A stretch of 64,000 bases of DNA, taken from the NCBI GenBank assembly GCA_039812645.1, contig JBDIAV010000004.1, positions 1,187 through 65,186 on the forward strand. The letters are read 5' to 3'. The stretch comes from Actinomycetaceae bacterium (GTDB lineage: Bacteria; Actinomycetota; Actinomycetes; Actinomycetales; Actinomycetaceae). Each line of letters begins with the position of its first letter. The first letter of the stretch is position 1. Below are positions 46,502 to 52,547 of this stretch, piece by piece. Position numbers and translations under genes: made by a program. Under the pieces are notes generated by a model. The model saw only the letters and a program-made list of their open reading frames with translations, had not been told where the DNA came from and made no database searches.

Positions 46502-48196
46502 ATGCGAACAACAAAGCATATTCGTAGGGCGGGTATGGCCTTGATGGCTGTTGCTGCCCTTGCGCTGAGCGGATGCTCAAATAGTAGCGACGGCAATTCA
46601 GACGGCGCTTCGTCCACCTCGCAGGAGCTACCCGGCTCGGATTACGCTAAGGCGGATCGTGATGCTGTGCAGGATGGCGGTACTCTCCGCCTGGCTATCA
46701 CCGCTATTCCGACCAGCTGGAACGGTGACAGTGCTCTCGGCAACAATGTTGATCTCAACACCTTTATGGCTCCCTACATCCGTCCCCTTAATTGGATCTA
46801 CGGAGAGGACGCTTCCTTCGAGCCGAACCCGGCTTATGTCACGGACTACACCATGTCCGACGATGGCTTGGACCTGACGATCAACCTCAACGAGAAGGCT
46901 GTGTGGAACGACGGTACACCGATCACCGTTGATGACTACATTGCGACGTGGAAGGCCAGCAACGGCACCCAGGAGGGCTACGAGGCTGCTTCCACCGATG
47001 GCTGGACCCAGATCTCCAGCATTGAGGCTGGTGACTCTGAGTTCCAGGTAAAGGTGAAGTTCTCCGAGGCTTATCCCGATTGGTCTGCCAACTTCTCCAC
47101 TGTCTCTCACGCAGCTGGCCTTGCAGATGCCAAGACCTTCAATGAGGGTTGGAGCGATGGAATGGCGGTTGTGGACTGGTTCACTGGTCCGTTCAAGGTA
47201 ACCGACATTGATCAGTCAGCCAAGCTTGTCACACTGGAGAAGAACCCGAACTGGTGGGGCGACGAGCCTAAGCTGGACAAGGTCACCTTCAAGGCACTTG
47301 AGACTGCGGCGATGGCACAGGCCTTTGCCAATAACGAGCTCGATGTTGTCGACATGATCATTGATGCCGATACGTACCAGCTCGTTCAGAAGCGCTCCGA
47401 CGCGAAGCTCTACATGTCGACCTCCGTGCAGTGGCGCCATTTCACCTTCAATTCTCGCGCGGGTGCGCTGAGTGACAAGGCGCTGCGACAAGCCATCCAG
47501 AAGGGCATCAACACCGCTGATATTACGGCGTCTGACCTTGCTGGTTTGCCGACCGCCGAGATGGATATGCACCTTGGTAACCACTTCTTCATGCCAAACC
47601 AGGAAGGCTATGAAGATAATGCTCCTGCTTTTGATTTAGAAGGCGCCAAGAAGGATATCGAAGCTCTCGGTTACACCATGAACGAGACCTCCGGCTACTA
47701 CGAGAAGGACGGCAAGGAGCTTGCCTTCAAGTACCTTCGCCTGCCTGATACCCCGACCTCCGCTAACGAGGGAGCAATGCTTCAGAACCAGATGAAGGAC
47801 CTCGGCGTGAAGATCACATTCGATGACACTACGTCTGAGGACTTCTTCACCCGCATCACCGCTGGTGAGTTCGAGATCGTTTCCTTCTCTTGGCAGGGTA
47901 CTCCGTACGCCATGGCCAACGTTGGTCAGATTTACGGCACTCCTGGTAGCAACTCCAACTTCTCCGGTGTCTCTGACCCCGAGATTGATGAGTACATTAA
48001 GAAGATTGCTACTGAGACTGATCGCGACGAGCGGATCAAGTTGACCAACGAAGTGGATAAGGTCATTTGGGACAACGTCATGACCCTTCCGTTGTACTAC
48101 CGCGCGAACATCACCGCTGTTCCGGCGAACCTTGTGAACTACGGCGCCACCGCGTTTGAGTCGTTCCCGGCTGAGAACATCGGCTTCGCCAAGTAA
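46502..48196 (+). CDS. oppA: Peptide ABC transporter substrate-binding lipoprotein (family 5)
   Basis: Lipobox LSGC, WNDGTPITVDD, TGPFKV, NPNWWG and ALRQAI motifs. Confidence 0.92.
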   Translation: MRTTKHIRRAGMALMAVAALALSGCSNSSDGNSDGASSTSQELPGSDYAKADRDAVQDGGTLRLAITAIPTSWNGDSALGNNVDLNTFMAPYIRPLNWIYGEDASFEPNPAYVTDYTMSDDGLDLTINLNEKAVWNDGTPITVDDYIATWKASNGTQEGYEAASTDGWTQISSIEAGDSEFQVKVKFSEAYPDWSANFSTVSHAAGLADAKTFNEGWSDGMAVVDWFTGPFKVTDIDQSAKLVTLEKNPNWWGDEPKLDKVTFKALETAAMAQAFANNELDVVDMIIDADTYQLVQKRSDAKLYMSTSVQWRHFTFNSRAGALSDKALRQAIQKGINTADITASDLAGLPTAEMDMHLGNHFFMPNQEGYEDNAPAFDLEGAKKDIEALGYTMNETSGYYEKDGKELAFKYLRLPDTPTSANEGAMLQNQMKDLGVKITFDDTTSEDFFTRITAGEFEIVSFSWQGTPYAMANVGQIYGTPGSNSNFSGVSDPEIDEYIKKIATETDRDERIKLTNEVDKVIWDNVMTLPLYYRANITAVPANLVNYGATAFESFPAENIGFAK

Positions 48197-48294: not shown

Positions 48295-48891
48295 CTAGAA
48301 TGCCACAAGTATGGCGGCGAGAGCCGTCAACACGGCGATTGCGCCCAAAGGAATGAGATGTACCGTCATCACGGTAATATTTTTGTCTGTTCCACCAGGC
48401 CTTTCGGCTCGCAACTCTTCCATGCGCATCTCAATGATGGTCGCGGCCCTGCCCGCCGTCACTTTGAGATTCTCAATCCCTGAATGCTCATCCCACACGA
48501 CTGCCTTTTCTACACGTGGTTTCGAGAATGAGTCGCTTACTCCAGCTCGTCCCGGGATTGCCCACACGTGGATGGGTTTATGCTCTTGCGGCGTCACCTG
48601 CAACCCCCATTTACCCGAGGTAGATTCCACTGCTTCCCATGGAACTGTGAAAGTGCGTGACGGATTGATAATGGTGACGCCTTCATCGTTCAAAATGACC
48701 CGGGGATTCCAGTAGCACAACCAACCAACCAGGGCGAGAATGGCTGCGACGAGAGCTGTTGCAACAAATGCACGGACACCGTAGCCGAAGCTGCTGATGA
48801 TCGCGACCCCGGCGAGTACCCATAGAAGATACGCGTAAAGGCGTGTTGCGGGGCCTCGGAGGATGTAGGTGGCAGTGTTCATGACTCCCAT
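48295..48891 (-). CDS. Membrane protein with a bacterial PH domain
   Basis: Two TMs, then PRVILNDEGVTIINPSRTFTVPWEAV and a C-terminal TM. Start is 48891 or 48882. Confidence 0.75.
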   Translation of the reverse strand: MGVMNTATYILRGPATRLYAYLLWVLAGVAIISSFGYGVRAFVATALVAAILALVGWLCYWNPRVILNDEGVTIINPSRTFTVPWEAVESTSGKWGLQVTPQEHKPIHVWAIPGRAGVSDSFSKPRVEKAVVWDEHSGIENLKVTAGRAATIIEMRMEELRAERPGGTDKNITVMTVHLIPLGAIAVLTALAAILVAF

Positions 48892-48951
48892 TCTCGCACT
48901 CCGGCGGGTCCTCCTTTCGCGACCAAGTAACGCATGGCTCACACCGCGAAA

Positions 48952-50217
48952 CTACTGAGCGCCGGACTCCCACAGTGCGGCGATTGGTACGGCGATGTTC
49001 TTGGGGCCAAATGCCAGAGTCTCGGTTCCCGTGTACAGTACGACGCCAGCCACGAGATCGTCACCCAGCCGGGTGGCCAGATGATTGATGCCGCGGAAAT
49101 CGTCGGGGTGGACCGTCGATGAAGCCTTGATGTCAAAGGCGACGACCCCTCCACGCCGGTCCTCCAGAACGATGTCTACCTCCACCTTGTCCTTGGTTCG
49201 ATAGTGGAACATCTCCGCGCGCGTCTGCGACCACGTGAGCTGGCGAGCCAGTTCCATCGAGACAAAGCTTTCAAGAATGCCGCCAAAAGGTGAATCCGGC
49301 CTGGCAAGACCACGTATATCCTGCCCCAAGAGGTTTGCCGCGATTCCGGAATCAACGAAACATACCTTGGGAGTGGATGTCGCCCGAGAACTTAGATTGC
49401 GCGACCATGCAGGAACGCGCTTGATGAGGAACACTTCCTCCAAGAGGCCGAGATAACGATCAATTGTTGGTCTCGTTAACCCCAGATCGCCAGTTAGGGA
49501 ACCTGGTACCAACAGCCCACCGGTCTGCGCCGCTAGAAGGCGAACAAGGGTACGCATCTGAGGGCCACGTTCAATCTCCGACAGCTGGATGACGTCCCGG
49601 TTGATGATGTCCGATATGTAGTTGTCGAAGAACGCCTCACGGCGGCGGCCCCGCCTTGCGACAGCCTCGGGAAACCCGCCTCGTATGACCCGATCAATGT
49701 ATCCATGCCGGTCCTCAGTGCTGCGATGCCGAAATTTGGGACCAAGCTCAAAAATGGCATCAATGAATCCGTCACTGGTCCCGTCAATTTCTCCCTGCGA
49801 AAGCGGCCAGAGTTCTATCGTCTCCGCTCTTCCAGGTAGAAGGTCTGGGACTCCTCGCATTCCCAGTAGGCGAGCGGAGCCCGTCAACAAGAACTGTCCG
49901 GGGCGCTGGTCCTCGTCTACGACGCTCTTGATCGCGAGAAGTAGCTCCGGAACGCGCTGAATCTCGTCAATAACGAGCATTCCTGATTCCCTCACGAAGG
50001 TTTCTGGATCGAACTCGGCCGCTTGCCTAACAGCTGCTTGGTCCAGATCGCGCAGGATAGCGTCCTGACCTGATGTCACTTGACGAACCAAAGTACTCTT
50101 CCCACACTGGCGCGCTCCGACAATCAGCACAACACGCGTGTCTTCCAAAGCCTCTTCTATCGCATTCTGACTGTGGCGTGGGAGAAACCTTCCGAGGGGA
50201 GTTTGTGTAGCATTCAT
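48952..50217 (-). CDS. AAA+ ATPase (AAA_14) with wHTH and C-terminal DUF4143 / PD-(D/E)XK-like domain
   Basis: GARQCGKST, VIDEIQR, FLLTGSA, GRAETIELWPLSQGE, GGFPE, TIDRYLGLLEEVFLI, PKVCFVDSG and HYRTKDKVEVDIV...DIKAS motifs. Confidence 0.9.
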   Translation of the reverse strand: MNATQTPLGRFLPRHSQNAIEEALEDTRVVLIVGARQCGKSTLVRQVTSGQDAILRDLDQAAVRQAAEFDPETFVRESGMLVIDEIQRVPELLLAIKSVVDEDQRPGQFLLTGSARLLGMRGVPDLLPGRAETIELWPLSQGEIDGTSDGFIDAIFELGPKFRHRSTEDRHGYIDRVIRGGFPEAVARRGRRREAFFDNYISDIINRDVIQLSEIERGPQMRTLVRLLAAQTGGLLVPGSLTGDLGLTRPTIDRYLGLLEEVFLIKRVPAWSRNLSSRATSTPKVCFVDSGIAANLLGQDIRGLARPDSPFGGILESFVSMELARQLTWSQTRAEMFHYRTKDKVEVDIVLEDRRGGVVAFDIKASSTVHPDDFRGINHLATRLGDDLVAGVVLYTGTETLAFGPKNIAVPIAALWESGAQ

Positions 50218-50240
50218 AAGGAAATTATCGCATCGATATT

Positions 50241-50321
50241 CGTTTGGTCGCTCGGTTGCTTTTCATTTAGTCGCTAGTTACGTGAGCGTTTGGTCGCTAG
50301 GCTTCCTTTCGTTTGGTCGCT
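50241..50321. repeat. Four 12-bp direct repeats at an exact 23-bp period (iteron/operator-like)
   Basis: CGTTTGGTCGCT at 50241, 50287 and 50310, and CATTTAGTCGCT at 50264. The intervening 11-mers differ. Confidence 0.88.
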
Positions 50322-50384
50322 ATTCATCCACGTGCATTCACTCCGTCAGCACGAACCTGCGGAACCCTGAACTTACGGATTCAT

Positions 50385-50457
50385 TTCCTGTGTGGCCTCG
50401 AGAGCGATGTCTCACGCCGAATACGGCATGGTGTGTCGCTGAGAGGCCACACAGGAA
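50385..50457. other. 73-nt inverted repeat with nested stems
   Basis: Perfect 15-bp arms TTCCTGTGTGGCCTC / GAGGCCACACAGGAA enclosing AGCGAT/GTCGCT and GCCG-AATA-CGGC stems. Confidence 0.65.
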
Positions 50458-50639
50458 TTGGAACTCTCGTTCATCCCGTGCAATTGTCGCATCTCACGCT
50501 TTCCGGAGGTTCTCCGAGGCCCGCCACGCGCGTAAACTTGCCACTTGCGGCGCATGAGCGCCCGTGCAAAGGAGCGCCTCAGGACAGTTTGCGCTTGGAT
50601 TGCGCTTGCGTGGGGTGCGAGACCCCTAGGAATTCATCT

Positions 50640-52547
50640 GTGAGCACCCGCAAAGATCTACGTAACGTCGCAATCGTCGCCCATGTTGACCATGGAAAGA
50701 CGACCCTCGTTGATGCCATGCTGTGGCAGGGAGGGGCCTTCGGCGAGCGCGCTACCGTGGAGAAGACGGGCGAGCGAGTCATGGATTCGGGCGATCTGGA
50801 GCGCGAGAAGGGCATCACCATTCTCGCCAAGAACACCGCGATCCGTTACATGGGCCCCTCGGCCGCTAAGTTCGGCGCACCCGACGGCGTGACGATCAAC
50901 GTTATCGATACCCCTGGTCACGCCGATTTCGGTGGCGAGGTCGAGCGCGGTCTCTCGATGGTCGACGGCGTCGTGCTGCTCGTGGACGCCTCCGAGGGCC
51001 CACTCCCGCAGACCCGCTTCGTGCTGCGCAAGGCGCTTGAAGCTGGCCTGCCCGTTATCACCGTGGTCAACAAGGTGGACCGCCCGGATGCCCGCATCGA
51101 CGAGGTCGTCAACGAGGCGCAGGACCTGCTGCTTTCCCTCTTCTCCGATTTGGATGATCAGGACGACGACGTCCTGGACAAGCTTCTCGAGATCCCCATC
51201 ATTTTCTGTGCTGCCAAGGCTGGTTACGCCGATACCGTGCGTCCAGACGACGGTGAACTGCCCGCCAACCAGAACCTCGAACCTCTCTTCGAGGCTATCC
51301 TTCACTACATCCCGGCGCCCGAGTATGACGAGGACGCCCCGCTGGTTGCTCAGGTGACGAACCTTGACGCCTCGCCGTTCCTTGGCCGCCTCGCGTTGAC
51401 GCGCGTCTACTCGGGCGAGCTGAAGAAGGGCGCCTGGGTGGGCTGGCACCGTAACGATGGCACTGTCACTAAGGTGCACATCTCCGAGCTGCTCGCCACC
51501 AAGGGCCTGGAGCGCGTTCCTGCGGAGACCGCGCATGCGGGTGACATTGTCGCAGTCGCCGGAATCCCGGAGATCACCATCGGTGATTCACTTGTGGATC
51601 CCGAGGATCCGCGCCCGCTCGATCCGATTCACGTGGATGACCCGGCTATCTCGATGACCATCGGCATCAACACGTCGCCTCTCGCAGGCAAGGTGAAGGG
51701 CCACAAGCTGACCGCCCGCCAAGTGAAGGATCGCCTGGATGCCGAGCTGATCGGCAACGTCTCTATCCGTGTGCTGCCCACTGACCGTCCCGACCAGTGG
51801 GAAGTCCAGGACCGCGGCGAGCTCGCGCTGGCCATCCTGGTGGAGCAGATGCGCCGTGAGGGCTTCGAGCTGACTGTTGGCAAACCGCAGGTTGTCACCA
51901 AGGAGATTGACGGCAAGCGCCACGAGCCGATCGAGCGCACTACCATTGACGTGCCGGAAGAATTCCTCGGCGCCGTCACCCAGCTGATGGCCGCCCGCAA
52001 GGGCCGCATGGAGACCATGGCAAACCACGGCTCAGGCTGGGTGCGCATGGAGTTCATCGTGCCCTCGCGCGGCATGATCGGCTTCCGTTCGCAGTTCCTT
52101 ACCCAGACGCGCGGCACCGGCATTGCCTCCTCCATCGGTGAGGGCTACGCCCCGTGGATGGGCGAGATCACCTCGCGCGCCACCGGCTCGCTGGTGTCTG
52201 ATCGCCAGGGCCAAGTCACGGCGTTTGCTCTACAGCGCCTGGAGGATCGTGGAACATTCTTCGTCGAGCCCGGTGCTGAAGTGTACGAGGGCCAGGTCGT
52301 GGGCGAGAACCCGCGTGACGAGGATATGGACGTTAACGTGGTGCGCGCCAAGGAAATGACGAACATGCGCTCGGCTACCGCGGACGTTTTTGAGCAGCTC
52401 AAGGCGCCGCGCAAGCTCACCCTTGAGGAGTCCATCGAGTTCGCTGCCGAGGATGAGTGCATCGAGGTTACCCCCGAAGCGGTGCGTATCCGCAAGCTCA
52501 TCCTTAACCAGGTAGAGCGTTACCGCGCAGCCCGCGCTAAGAAGTAA
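50640..52547 (+). CDS. typA: Translational GTPase TypA/BipA
   Basis: [44 protein letters not shown] and [10 protein letters not shown] motifs. True start is GTG 50640. Confidence 0.97.

What the first reader, a model, noticed from the sequence alone, without database searches (positions are those of the whole stretch)
48952..50321. AAA/wHTH/PD-(D/E)XK-like ATPase whose promoter carries four exactly 23-bp-phased repeats
Seen: four copies of (C)GTTTGGTCGCT start at 50241, 50264 (2 mismatches), 50287 and 50310. On the coding strand they lie immediately upstream of an extended -10 (TGcGATAAT, 50232-50224) 6 nt before the ATG, so the first repeat covers the -35 zone of a probably leaderless promoter. 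The protein has an AAA_14 ATPase, a winged-helix-like segment (SLTGDLGLTRPTIDRYLGLLE) and a C-terminal EVDIV...DIK nuclease-like motif. Established: this widespread family has no defined function. Inference: the ATPase oligomerises on the phased array, like Rep/DnaA on iterons, to autoregulate or to license a nuclease (defence or selfish element). The array gives a concrete DNA target for an uncharacterised family.
Basis: partly seen in the sequence, partly recalled or inferred. Interest (0 to 1): 0.62.

Follow-up and report, generated by a model that had tools for sequence, protein, structure and literature searches.

The report
Private repeat array of ATPase-nuclease gene
Four evenly spaced repeats sit on the promoter of a gene from a very common but untested candidate phage-defence family (PDC-S01), and about two thirds of the roughly 130 relatives examined carry their own version of such repeats, so they are most likely the protein's own docking and self-control sites.

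Summary
CGTTTGGTCGCT occurs at 50241, 50264 (2 mismatches), 50287 and 50310, exactly 23 bp apart. The array lies directly upstream of a 421-aa gene (48952-50217, minus strand) that encodes an AAA_14 ATPase, a winged helix and a DUF4143 PD-(D/E)XK nuclease. This architecture is PADLOC candidate PDC-S01.

The array is not a genome-wide repeat and does not belong to typA. It is absent from the empty site in a sister species, and gene plus array are shared as one block with another sister genome.

The pattern holds across the family:
- Both other paralogues in this genome, and all six extra paralogues in a sister genome, carry 3-5 units at 22/23 bp, each with a different word.
- 26 of 33 non-redundant homologues show this, against 0 of 95 control windows.
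- Arrays recur in other phyla.

The array register is fixed relative to the start codon. The proximal box covers -36 to -20, next to an extended -10 (TGCGATAAT) that ends 6 nt before the ATG, so the promoter is probably leaderless.

Most likely the protein's winged helix binds each box head to tail and controls its own transcription, with repression favoured. Binding itself is inferred, not shown. I found no published description, although earlier notes of this scan report the same rule in other genomes.

The parts
48952..50217 (-). Gene for a 421-aa AAA_14 ATPase / winged helix / DUF4143 nuclease-like protein (P0001). It matches PADLOC candidate PDC-S01.
   Evidence: ORF with a single possible start. 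Pfam AAA_14 and DUF4143. PADLOC PDLC04790, E 3.5e-171, full length. AF2 model pLDDT 89.8.
49786..50139 (-). AAA_14 ATPase domain (residues 27-144). Walker A is GARQCGKST (G34, G39, K40), Walker B is VIDEIQ (D84, E85), and R130 is invariant.
   Evidence: Pfam. Invariant columns in the 33-sequence alignment A2.
49363..49566 (-). Winged helix-turn-helix (residues about 218-285). Helix 2 is SLTGDLGL, the recognition helix is PTIDRYLGLLEEV (T251 and Y255 nearly invariant), and the wing is FLIKRVPAWSRNLSSRATSTPKV. This is the presumed reader of the boxes.
   Evidence: AF2 secondary structure: H218-230, H238-245, H249-261, E265-268, E284-287. Weak, non-significant ArsR-type HTH matches. Variable residues 249, 250 and 253 group with the box word.
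49033..49287 (-). PD-(D/E)XK nuclease-like core (residues 311-395). Motifs are E346-V-D348 on strand 2 and D362-I-K364 on strand 3.
   Evidence: D348, K364 and E316 are invariant and E322 is nearly invariant. The model shows alpha-beta-beta-beta-alpha-beta topology. DUF4143 is listed as PD-(D/E)XK in PMC3424549.
50224..50232 (-). Extended -10 element TGCGATAAT, ending 6 nt before the ATG. This implies a leaderless transcript.
   Evidence: Sequence. The same geometry is enriched in homologues: 31 of 40 have a -10-like hexamer and 17 of 40 have the TGn extension, against shuffle means of 8.3 and 0.6. The simple sigma-70 scan found no -35/-10 pair, as expected for a promoter that does not depend on a -35 element.
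50237..50253 (-). Box 1 (proximal). The core AGCGACCAAACG lies at 50252-50241. The footprint, -36 to -20 from the ATG, covers the -35 hexamer and the spacer.
   Evidence: Footprint limits come from the start-anchored identity profile of 17 lineages.
50264..50275 (-). Box 2, a degenerate copy (AGCGACTAAATG, 2 mismatches). The 95% orthologue lacks exactly this 23-nt unit.
50287..50298 (-). Box 3, exact copy AGCGACCAAACG.
50310..50321 (-). Box 4 (distal), exact copy AGCGACCAAACG.

Best explanation
The four boxes are the cognate DNA sites of the protein encoded immediately downstream.

Each asymmetric box of about 17 bp (core AGCGACCAAACG on the coding strand) is read by the winged helix of one protomer. 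Because the boxes are direct repeats spaced two helical turns apart (23 bp), the protomers sit head to tail on one face of the DNA and can bind cooperatively, probably under control of the AAA+ ATPase.

The proximal box occupies -36 to -20 of a leaderless promoter with an extended -10, so occupancy of the array sets the gene's own transcription. Autorepression is the more likely sign.

Gene plus array behave as one self-contained, horizontally moving cassette. The word of each cassette is private, so paralogues in one cell do not cross-talk.

Shown here: the array, its exact phasing, its fixed register to the start codon, its recurrence and word change across the family, and its co-occurrence with the gene. 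Inferred: binding by this protein, cooperativity, ATP dependence, and the sign of regulation.
For: (1) The phenomenon is family-wide. Both other paralogues in this genome have four units at exactly 23 bp with unrelated words, ACGTAAACGTGGT and CCTGATAGAAA.
- 26 of 33 non-redundant homologues have a best period of 22 or 23 with score >=11, and 3 more have period 32. None of 95 control windows (far upstream, inside the gene, downstream) reaches this.
- 13 of 17 unselected paralogues from relatives show arrays, including all 6 extra paralogues of sister genome G001, each with a different word. So do 5 of 7 further paralogues.
- 30 of 74 loci from other phyla pass the strict criterion.

(2) Selection acts on the boxes, not the linkers. 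Anchored on independently placed start codons in 17 lineages, unit-to-unit identity is mostly 0.5-0.94 at -36..-20, -60..-44 and -82..-66. It falls to 0.24-0.41 in the linkers and to about 0.2 from -19 to -1. GCGACCAAAC is kept between hosts of different orders at 57-76% protein identity, while the linkers differ.

(3) The word tracks the winged helix. Groups that share the start of the recognition helix share the box:
- RPTI[DE]R with AGCGACCAAACGAA
- QSTVDR with TGCGGCCAAACTAG
- QPTVKR with CCAGATCAAC
- QHTV with CCAAACTGCAG
- SRPTIRDY with CTTTCAATCAGCCG
- DDKT.RRY with TTCCGGATTGGACG
- RRETV with GGCAATTGGACG
Partial Mantel r(word, HTH | rest of protein) = 0.25, p <= 0.0005.

(4) The only constant partner of the array is the gene.
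- Words occur only upstream, always on the coding strand, and nowhere else within +/-1.5 kb or in the genome.
- The empty site in sister species G002 has neither gene nor array.
- The G000/G001 shared block runs from 48942 to about 50345, which is the gene plus the array.

(5) Promoter geometry. TGCGATAAT ends 6 nt before the ATG and there is no Shine-Dalgarno sequence. The -10 and TGn motifs are enriched at the same place in homologues. In several proteobacterial, acidobacterial and spirochaete clades the last box appears to abut or contain the start codon (L109, L113, L120, L122, L124, L137). Start codons there were placed automatically, so this reading is provisional. If it holds, it fits repression rather than activation.

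(6) The protein is intact. Walker A/B, R130 and the nuclease residues D348, D362 and K364 are conserved, and the fold is confident.

(7) A Thermus thermophilus family member (TT_P0211) rises 6.6-fold when plasmid DNA is present (PMC4406477). Expression of the family can therefore be regulated.
Against: - There is no binding, footprint or transcript data.
- The covariation signal is modest. Word distance also correlates with the rest of the protein after removing the HTH (r = 0.18, p <= 0.0005). Part of the signal is therefore plain co-inheritance of neighbouring DNA.
- I found no simple residue-to-base code. For example, residue 249 against the base after CAAAC is mixed.
- A box on the -35/spacer is also the geometry of class II-type activators that replace the -35 contact (PhoB, SARP regulators; my own knowledge). 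The sign of regulation is therefore open.
- In STAND and AAA+ relatives found by Foldseek (CED-4, Apaf-1, Avs, RuvB) the equivalent winged helix is often not a sequence-specific DNA reader.
- Some homologues have degenerate arrays or none (L014, L020, L024), and some have palindromes instead (L058, L168).
Confidence: 0.7

Rival explanations
1. The array is mainly a resting or assembly platform for the defence or nuclease function, and promoter control is a by-product. The ATPase-nuclease nucleates on its private array, as ParB does on parS or DnaA on oriC, and is held inactive there. It is released or activated when infection changes DNA topology, the ATP level or competition for the sites.
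For: The protein couples a DNA reader to an intact nuclease motif and an ATPase. The family is a defence candidate that is enriched near defence genes (PMC12988326). Some arrays lie about 100 nt from the start rather than on the promoter, and some are expanded to 5 perfect units (L161). Units are gained and lost as whole 23-bp steps.
Against: In 17 lineages the register of the array relative to the start codon is fixed, with the proximal box on the core promoter. This is what an operator needs and a mere platform does not. No anti-phage activity has been shown for any member. This rival is not exclusive of autoregulation.
Confidence: 0.15
2. The array is a mobility site. The cassette moves by itself, and the nuclease-ATPase recognises the repeats as an element end or homing site, as transposases recognise subterminal repeats.
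For: Gene plus array form the block shared between sister genomes and missing from an otherwise syntenic site. Distribution is patchy: 14 of 31 relatives have a homologue and the orthologue is in only 1 of 4 congeners. The closest relatives at 75-76% identity are in other orders and classes. There are several copies per genome.
Against: Words occur at one end only and always in one orientation. No copy lies downstream of the gene on either strand in 36 loci. I saw no inverted terminal repeats, no target-site duplication and no integrase or transposase partner. The fixed spacing to the start codon points to a promoter function.
Confidence: 0.06
3. The repeats are iterons of a replication origin or a partition site, and the ATPase is an initiator or segregation protein of an integrated element.
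For: The geometry is iteron-like: 3-6 direct repeats at 22-23 bp next to the gene of an AAA+ protein with a winged helix. Foldseek also retrieves ORC/Cdc6 subunits.
Against: No DnaA box lies within 2 kb. There is no strongly AT-rich stretch: the array is 42% GC, against 53-62% in the flanking gene. There is no Rep_3 or Cdc6 Pfam match. The cassette is a single 1.4-kb gene in the chromosome, present in 3 to 7 copies per genome. Only 311 of 72,556 plasmid records hold a homologue; most listed hits are large plasmids (hundreds of kb) and the commonest hosts are Rhizobium and Agrobacterium.
Confidence: 0.02
4. The repeats are bound by some other host factor, belong to typA regulation, or are neutral tandem duplications.
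For: The array lies in the divergent typA intergenic region. Tandem units can arise by slippage, as the exact 23-nt unit difference between G000 and G001 shows.
Against: typA in three congeners has no array. Arrays with the same period accompany this gene family in unrelated genomic contexts and phyla. Boxes are conserved and linkers are not. Each paralogue has a different word, which a shared host factor would not explain.
Confidence: 0.03

Closest known systems
PADLOC phage-defence candidate PDC-S01 (COG1373; Pfam AAA_14 + DUF4143)
   Same: The window protein matches model PDLC04790 over its full length (E 3.5e-171) and has the defining two-domain architecture.
   Different: Nothing differs in the protein. 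What is added is a conserved cis element. The literature found treats PDC-S01 as an abundant, unvalidated single-gene candidate and does not mention upstream repeats.
Iterons and their Rep initiators in theta-replicating plasmids (pPS10, F, R6K, P1, pSC101); comparison from my own knowledge
   Same: Three to seven direct repeats at about 22-23 bp phasing lie next to the gene of the protein that binds them through winged-helix domains. The words are private, which gives incompatibility or orthogonality. Rep genes are also autoregulated at operator repeats.
   Different: There are no origin features here and no Rep_3 fold or family. The protein is an AAA+ ATPase fused to a nuclease, and the locus is chromosomal, single-gene and multi-copy.
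Orc1/Cdc6 with origin recognition boxes, and DnaA with arrayed DnaA boxes
   Same: An AAA+ module followed by a DNA-reading winged helix or HTH assembles on arrays of asymmetric boxes, often beside its own gene. ORC and Cdc6 chains are among the Foldseek hits.
   Different: Structural similarity is low (TM 0.19-0.25). There is no Cdc6 or DnaA Pfam match. The protein carries an extra PD-(D/E)XK domain, and there is no origin context.
MalT and SARP/AfsR-type STAND regulators; comparison from my own knowledge, although MalT appears among the Foldseek hits (8bob)
   Same: A nucleotide-switched ATPase multimerises on direct-repeat boxes that abut or replace the -35 element. SARP boxes are phased at 11 or 22 bp and lie about 8 bp upstream of the -10 in actinobacterial promoters.
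   Different: Those proteins read DNA with LuxR- or OmpR-type domains, act on other genes as activators, and carry no nuclease. Here the only detectable target is the gene's own promoter.
Walker-type ATPase PABY2304 of Pyrococcus abyssi (PDB 2qen; archaeal ATPase family)
   Same: It is the best structural match (E 8.2e-7, TM 0.43/0.51): an AAA+-like core, a helical lid and a winged helix.
   Different: Sequence identity is 15%, it has no nuclease domain, and to my knowledge its function is also unknown.

Membership tests
PDC-S01 (PADLOC) | Full-length match to a PDC-S01 profile HMM | tested here: met
   PDLC04790: E 3.5e-171, residues 10-418 matched to profile positions 10-420 of 422.
PDC-S01 (PADLOC) | Protects against phage | not testable with these tools
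   The literature states that validation is pending (PMC12988326).
AAA_14 + DUF4143 (COG1373) | Both Pfam domains above the gathering score, in this order | tested here: met
   AAA_14 scores 97.9 bits (cut-off 27) at residues 27-144. DUF4143 scores 136.6 bits (cut-off 28.1) at residues 207-366.
P-loop AAA+ ATPase | Intact Walker A, Walker B and a conserved arginine | tested here: met
   G34, G39, K40, D84, E85 and R130 are invariant in 33 homologues.
PD-(D/E)XK nuclease superfamily | A D...(D/E)xK motif on strands 2 and 3 of an alpha-beta-beta-beta-alpha-beta core | tested here: met
   D348 and K364 are invariant, and position 362 is D here against a consensus E. The model gives H311-329, E334-340, E346-353, E358-363, H371-387, E388-395. 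Family assignment is in PMC3424549. Catalysis was not tested.
Iteron-Rep replication origin | Rep_3 / WH1-WH2 initiator protein | tested here: not met
   No Rep family appears among the Pfam matches. The only related hit is a 15-bit sub-threshold match to RepB_primase_C.
Iteron-Rep replication origin | DnaA box and AT-rich unwinding element next to the iterons | tested here: not met
   The nearest DnaA-box-like site is at 48052, 2.2 kb away. GC is 42% over the array, with no long AT tract.
Iteron-Rep replication origin | Direct repeats of about 17-22 bp phased at about 22 bp | tested here: met
   Four units at 23 bp, with a box of about 17 bp.
Orc1/Cdc6 | Cdc6/Orc1 AAA+ and Cdc6_C winged-helix families | tested here: not met
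   No such Pfam match. Structural similarity to ORC/Cdc6 chains is TM 0.19-0.25.
Genome-wide dispersed repeat (REP/MITE) | Many copies elsewhere in the genome | tested here: not met
   One other exact copy exists in 3.5 Mb, and one-mismatch copies fall below the reversed-word control. By contrast, the neighbouring hairpin at 50376-50466 is dispersed.
Known structured RNA | Match to an Rfam model | tested here: not met
   No match at E <= 1 in 50150-50720.

The most novel reading that the evidence does not exclude
PDC-S01 proteins are sequence-programmed ATPase-nucleases. Each carries a private address, its own 22/23-bp-phased array, on which an ATP-dependent head-to-tail oligomer assembles. 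The array would be both the autorepressor site and the parking or nucleation site of an immune or selfish nuclease, and it would be released or fired when infection perturbs it. The rapid, orthogonal change of word together with the recognition helix would make this a naturally diversified set of specific DNA readers. It would also give the fourth most common candidate defence of prokaryotes its first defined ligand.
Probability: 0.15. Interest if true: 0.85.

Novelty: new variant of a known kind. Interest (0 to 1): 0.62.

Why it matters
PDC-S01 (AAA_14 + DUF4143) is reported as the fourth most common candidate defence system of prokaryotes, with about 39,000 loci counted in one survey (PMC12988326). 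It has no validated activity, no known ligand and no known regulation.

A conserved, phased array with a private word at the promoter gives a concrete DNA substrate for binding, footprinting, structural and reporter experiments. It predicts which protein segment reads the DNA. It also explains how 3 to 7 paralogues can coexist in one genome without cross-talk.

The array is a simple annotation signature for the family: 3-5 direct repeats at 22/23 bp that end about 20 nt before the start codon. If the array also nucleates the nuclease, it would be a new way of parking an immune effector on self DNA.

This window is one more instance of a rule that earlier notes of this scan already report in other genomes. 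It adds a clean empty site, a whole-unit copy-number change between sister genomes, and three orthogonal arrays in one assembly.

Tried and rejected
- A simple sigma-70 -35/-10 scan found no promoter in 48800-50750. This fits a -35-independent extended -10 but gives no positive support.
- The Rfam search of the intergenic region found nothing.
- The PDB sequence search found only non-significant ArsR-type HTH matches. Foldseek gave only low-TM AAA+/STAND/RuvB/ORC matches, so there is no characterised structural homologue to lean on.
- I looked for a one-residue-to-one-base recognition code (residues 249, 250 and 253 against the bases after CAAAC/CAGAT) and found none that held across lineages. 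The partial Mantel test gave only a modest excess for the HTH over the rest of the protein.
- I looked for words downstream of the gene or on the other strand, as terminal repeats of a mobile element would be, and found none.
- I rejected the origin/iteron reading.
- I rejected the typA-regulation and genome-wide-repeat readings.
- I checked whether the extended -10 is a fifth, in-phase box. It shares GCGA but is offset by 20 nt rather than 23 nt, and the start-anchored profile is at background there.
- A Thermus thermophilus plasmid homologue showed no obvious 22/23-bp array on inspection.
- Literature searches for DUF4143, COG1373, PDC-S01, PF13635/PF13173/AAA_14 and 'AAA_14 + direct repeats' found no description of the repeats.
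Full report
**The observation**

The plus strand of the window reads CGTTTGGTCGCT at 50241, 50287 and 50310, and CATTTAGTCGCT at 50264. The starts are 23 bp apart each time. The remaining window matches at up to two mismatches are scattered and at chance level (9 found, 6.5 expected). In the whole 3.5-Mb assembly there is one other exact copy, inside an ORF. One-mismatch copies (14) are fewer than for the reversed control word (29). The array is therefore real, local and not a dispersed repeat.

It lies 23 nt upstream of the only possible start codon (ATG at 50217) of a 421-aa minus-strand ORF, 48952-50217. On the coding strand the order is:
- four boxes AGCGACCAAACG
- then GAATATCGA
- then TGCGATAAT, an extended -10 at 50232-50224
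- then TTCCTT
- then the ATG, with no Shine-Dalgarno sequence.

**The protein**

Pfam gives AAA_14 (residues 27-144) and DUF4143 (residues 207-366). NCBIfam has no model for it. PADLOC model PDLC04790 of candidate system PDC-S01 matches over the full length with E 3.5e-171.

In an alignment of 33 homologues the invariant residues are G34, G39 and K40 (Walker A), D84 and E85 (Walker B), R130, E316, D348 and K364.

The AlphaFold2 model is confident (pLDDT 89.8, pTM 0.90). It shows:
- an AAA+ core with a helical lid
- a winged helix (helices 218-230, 238-245 and 249-261, then a beta hairpin)
- a C-terminal alpha-beta-beta-beta-alpha-beta core, with D348 on strand 2 and D362-x-K364 on strand 3. 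This is the PD-(D/E)XK arrangement, and DUF4143 is listed in that superfamily (PMC3424549).

Foldseek finds only distant AAA+ plus winged-helix proteins: 2qen, RuvB, STAND proteins such as CED-4, Apaf-1, Avs and MalT, and ORC/Cdc6. TM scores are 0.2-0.43. No close solved relative exists by sequence.

**The array is a family rule**

The assembly has two more paralogues. Both have four direct repeats at exactly 23 bp just upstream, with unrelated words: ACGTAAACGTGGT-like on contig 41 and CCTGATAGAAA-like on contig 129.

I collected 39 homologous loci and scored columns identical in successive units for periods 15-39.
- 26 of 33 non-redundant upstream regions have their best period at 22 or 23 with score >=11, and 3 Bacteroidota loci have period 32.
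- None of 95 control windows from the same loci (far upstream, inside the gene, downstream) does so.

An unselected sample of paralogues from related genomes gives the same picture: 5 of 7 and 13 of 17. This includes all six extra paralogues of the complete sister genome G001, each with a different word. Two further loci have boxes at about 23-24 bp that the strict score missed. Eighty more loci reached with an alignment query span Pseudomonadota, Acidobacteriota, Verrucomicrobiota, Spirochaetia and other phyla. 30 of the 74 analysable ones pass the strict criterion at 22, 23 or 44 bp.

**Position and polarity**

The words occur only upstream, always on the coding strand, and nowhere else within +/-1.5 kb.

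I averaged unit-to-unit identity over 17 lineages, anchored on start codons placed from the protein alignment:
- mostly 0.5-0.94 at -36..-20, -60..-44 and -82..-66
- 0.24-0.41 in the linkers
- about 0.2 from -19 to -1.

So the box is about 17 bp, the linker about 6 bp, and the register to the start codon is fixed.

In 31 of 40 actinobacterial loci a -10-like hexamer ends 5-9 nt before the start codon (shuffle mean 8.3, maximum 16). 17 of these carry the TGn extension (shuffle mean 0.6, maximum 3). This is the geometry of a leaderless promoter that does not depend on a -35 element, with the proximal box on the -35 zone and spacer. The plain sigma-70 scan finds no -35/-10 pair, which is consistent with this.

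In several clades outside Actinomycetota the last box appears to abut or contain the start codon (L109, L113, L120, L122, L124, L137). Start codons in that set were placed automatically and some looked misplaced, so this reading is provisional.

**Who binds the array**

The array changes word from clade to clade while the copies within one array stay alike. Groups that share the beginning of the recognition helix share the box:

| Start of recognition helix | Box word |
|---|---|
| RPTI[DE]R | AGCGACCAAACGAA |
| QSTVDR | TGCGGCCAAACTAG |
| QPTVKR | CCAGATCAAC |
| QHTV | CCAAACTGCAG |
| SRPTIRDY | CTTTCAATCAGCCG |
| DDKT.RRY | TTCCGGATTGGACG |
| RRETV | GGCAATTGGACG |

A partial Mantel test on 57 arrays gives r(word, HTH | rest) = 0.25 and r(word, rest | HTH) = 0.18, both with p <= 0.0005. 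The link to the HTH is therefore only modestly stronger than plain co-inheritance. I could not derive a residue-to-base code.

The stronger argument is that the encoded protein is the only constant partner of the array across contexts, hosts and paralogues, and that it has a suitable DNA-reading domain.

**Cassette behaviour**

Only 14 of 31 related genomes have any homologue, and the orthologue (95% identity) is found in one of four congeners. That genome, G001, shares with the window a block running from 48942 to about 50345, which is the gene plus the array. It has three boxes. The window has one extra exact 23-nt unit, the degenerate one.

Congener G002 has the same neighbours (an ABC substrate-binding protein, a small membrane protein on the other strand, and typA). 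Its intergenic region is about 190 bp with neither gene nor array. The typA leader is conserved only from about 50476-50528 onwards. The repeats therefore do not belong to typA.

The closest other relatives (75-76% identity) are in Arachnia and an Ilumatobacteraceae MAG, which indicates horizontal transfer.

Homologues occur on 311 of 72,556 plasmid records. Most listed hits are large plasmids (hundreds of kb), and the commonest hosts are Rhizobium and Agrobacterium. Only 10 unannotated metagenomic phage-labelled contigs hold one. No DnaA box or AT-rich unwinding element flanks the array, so it is not an origin.

**Mechanism**

I conclude that the boxes are the protein's own sites. One winged helix binds per asymmetric box, and the protomers sit head to tail on one DNA face at two-turn spacing. 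Binding is probably cooperative and nucleotide-dependent, and it controls the gene's own leaderless promoter.

Repression is favoured for three reasons:
- An extended -10 promoter needs no activator.
- The proximal box fills the -35/spacer region.
- In other clades the last box appears to cover the start site (provisional, see above).

Activation in the manner of PhoB or SARP regulators cannot be excluded from position alone.

A T. thermophilus member is induced 6.6-fold when plasmid DNA is present (PMC4406477), so expression in the family can be regulated.

Whether the array also parks or licenses the nuclease is open. I give that reading about 0.15.

**Comparison and novelty**

By the PADLOC profile and domain architecture, the protein is a member of PDC-S01.

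The array resembles plasmid iterons in geometry, and Orc1/Cdc6 or DnaA box arrays and MalT/SARP box arrays in logic. It fails the membership tests for all of these: no Rep_3 or Cdc6 families, no origin features, and no LuxR or OmpR DNA-binding domain.

The literature searches found PDC-S01 described only as an abundant, unvalidated candidate, with no mention of upstream repeats.

Earlier notes of this scan report the same rule in other genomes, with periods of 23 or 33 bp. I treated them as leads and re-derived the rule from my own loci. Their claim of a simple recognition code was not reproduced here.

The finding is real and useful, but this window is one more instance of a pattern the scan has already met.

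Noticed in passing
window 50376-50466: This is a 91-nt nested hairpin between the array and typA (dG -52.5 kcal/mol, z -8.1). It belongs to a dispersed palindromic family, with at least 8 other copies at 72-77% identity on other contigs of this assembly. The empty site of congener G002 shows no comparable long inverted repeat. G001 has a different 34-nt-arm palindrome at the same place. It looks like a REP/MITE-like element and is unrelated to the 23-bp array.
   Followed up: partly
window 48295-48952: The ATPase stop codon (48952-48954) lies 10 nt from the GTG start (48942) of a 215-aa membrane-protein gene on the same strand. In congener G002 the homologous membrane gene faces typA directly. 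The cassette therefore sits between that gene and its former promoter region and probably now drives it.
   Followed up: partly
L074 9530-11486 (G001): The sister genome carries about 2 kb of extra DNA between the membrane-protein gene and the ATPase stop codon. This DNA is absent from the window. Its content was not examined.
   Followed up: no
L161 158-265 (G001 paralogue): There are four perfect 23-bp units and one partial unit (GAAAACCCGCAAACACGAAAACT), about 100 nt upstream of another DUF4143 gene. This looks like a recently expanded array that is not adjacent to the start codon.
   Followed up: no
L058 about -95 to -50 before the start; L168 351-395: Some paralogues carry a long palindrome instead of direct repeats, for example TCAAATTTGGGAATGGCATTCCCAAATTTGA. 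The family may therefore use both head-to-tail and head-to-head site layouts.
   Followed up: no
L045-L050 (Bacteroidota homologues), -104 to -8: Here the period is 32 bp rather than 22/23 bp. The units are partly palindromic (TTTCCAnTATAGTGGAAAAATTA) and run up to the start codon.
   Followed up: partly
L011 (own genome, contig 129): The third paralogue and its array are markedly AT-rich compared with the rest of the genome, which suggests recent acquisition.
   Followed up: no
L155 (Rhodoferax antarcticus plasmid NZ_CP019241.1): This plasmid homologue sits between a Fic-family gene and an addiction-module antidote gene. It has TAATTGGACG-like boxes at 22-23 bp upstream.
   Followed up: no
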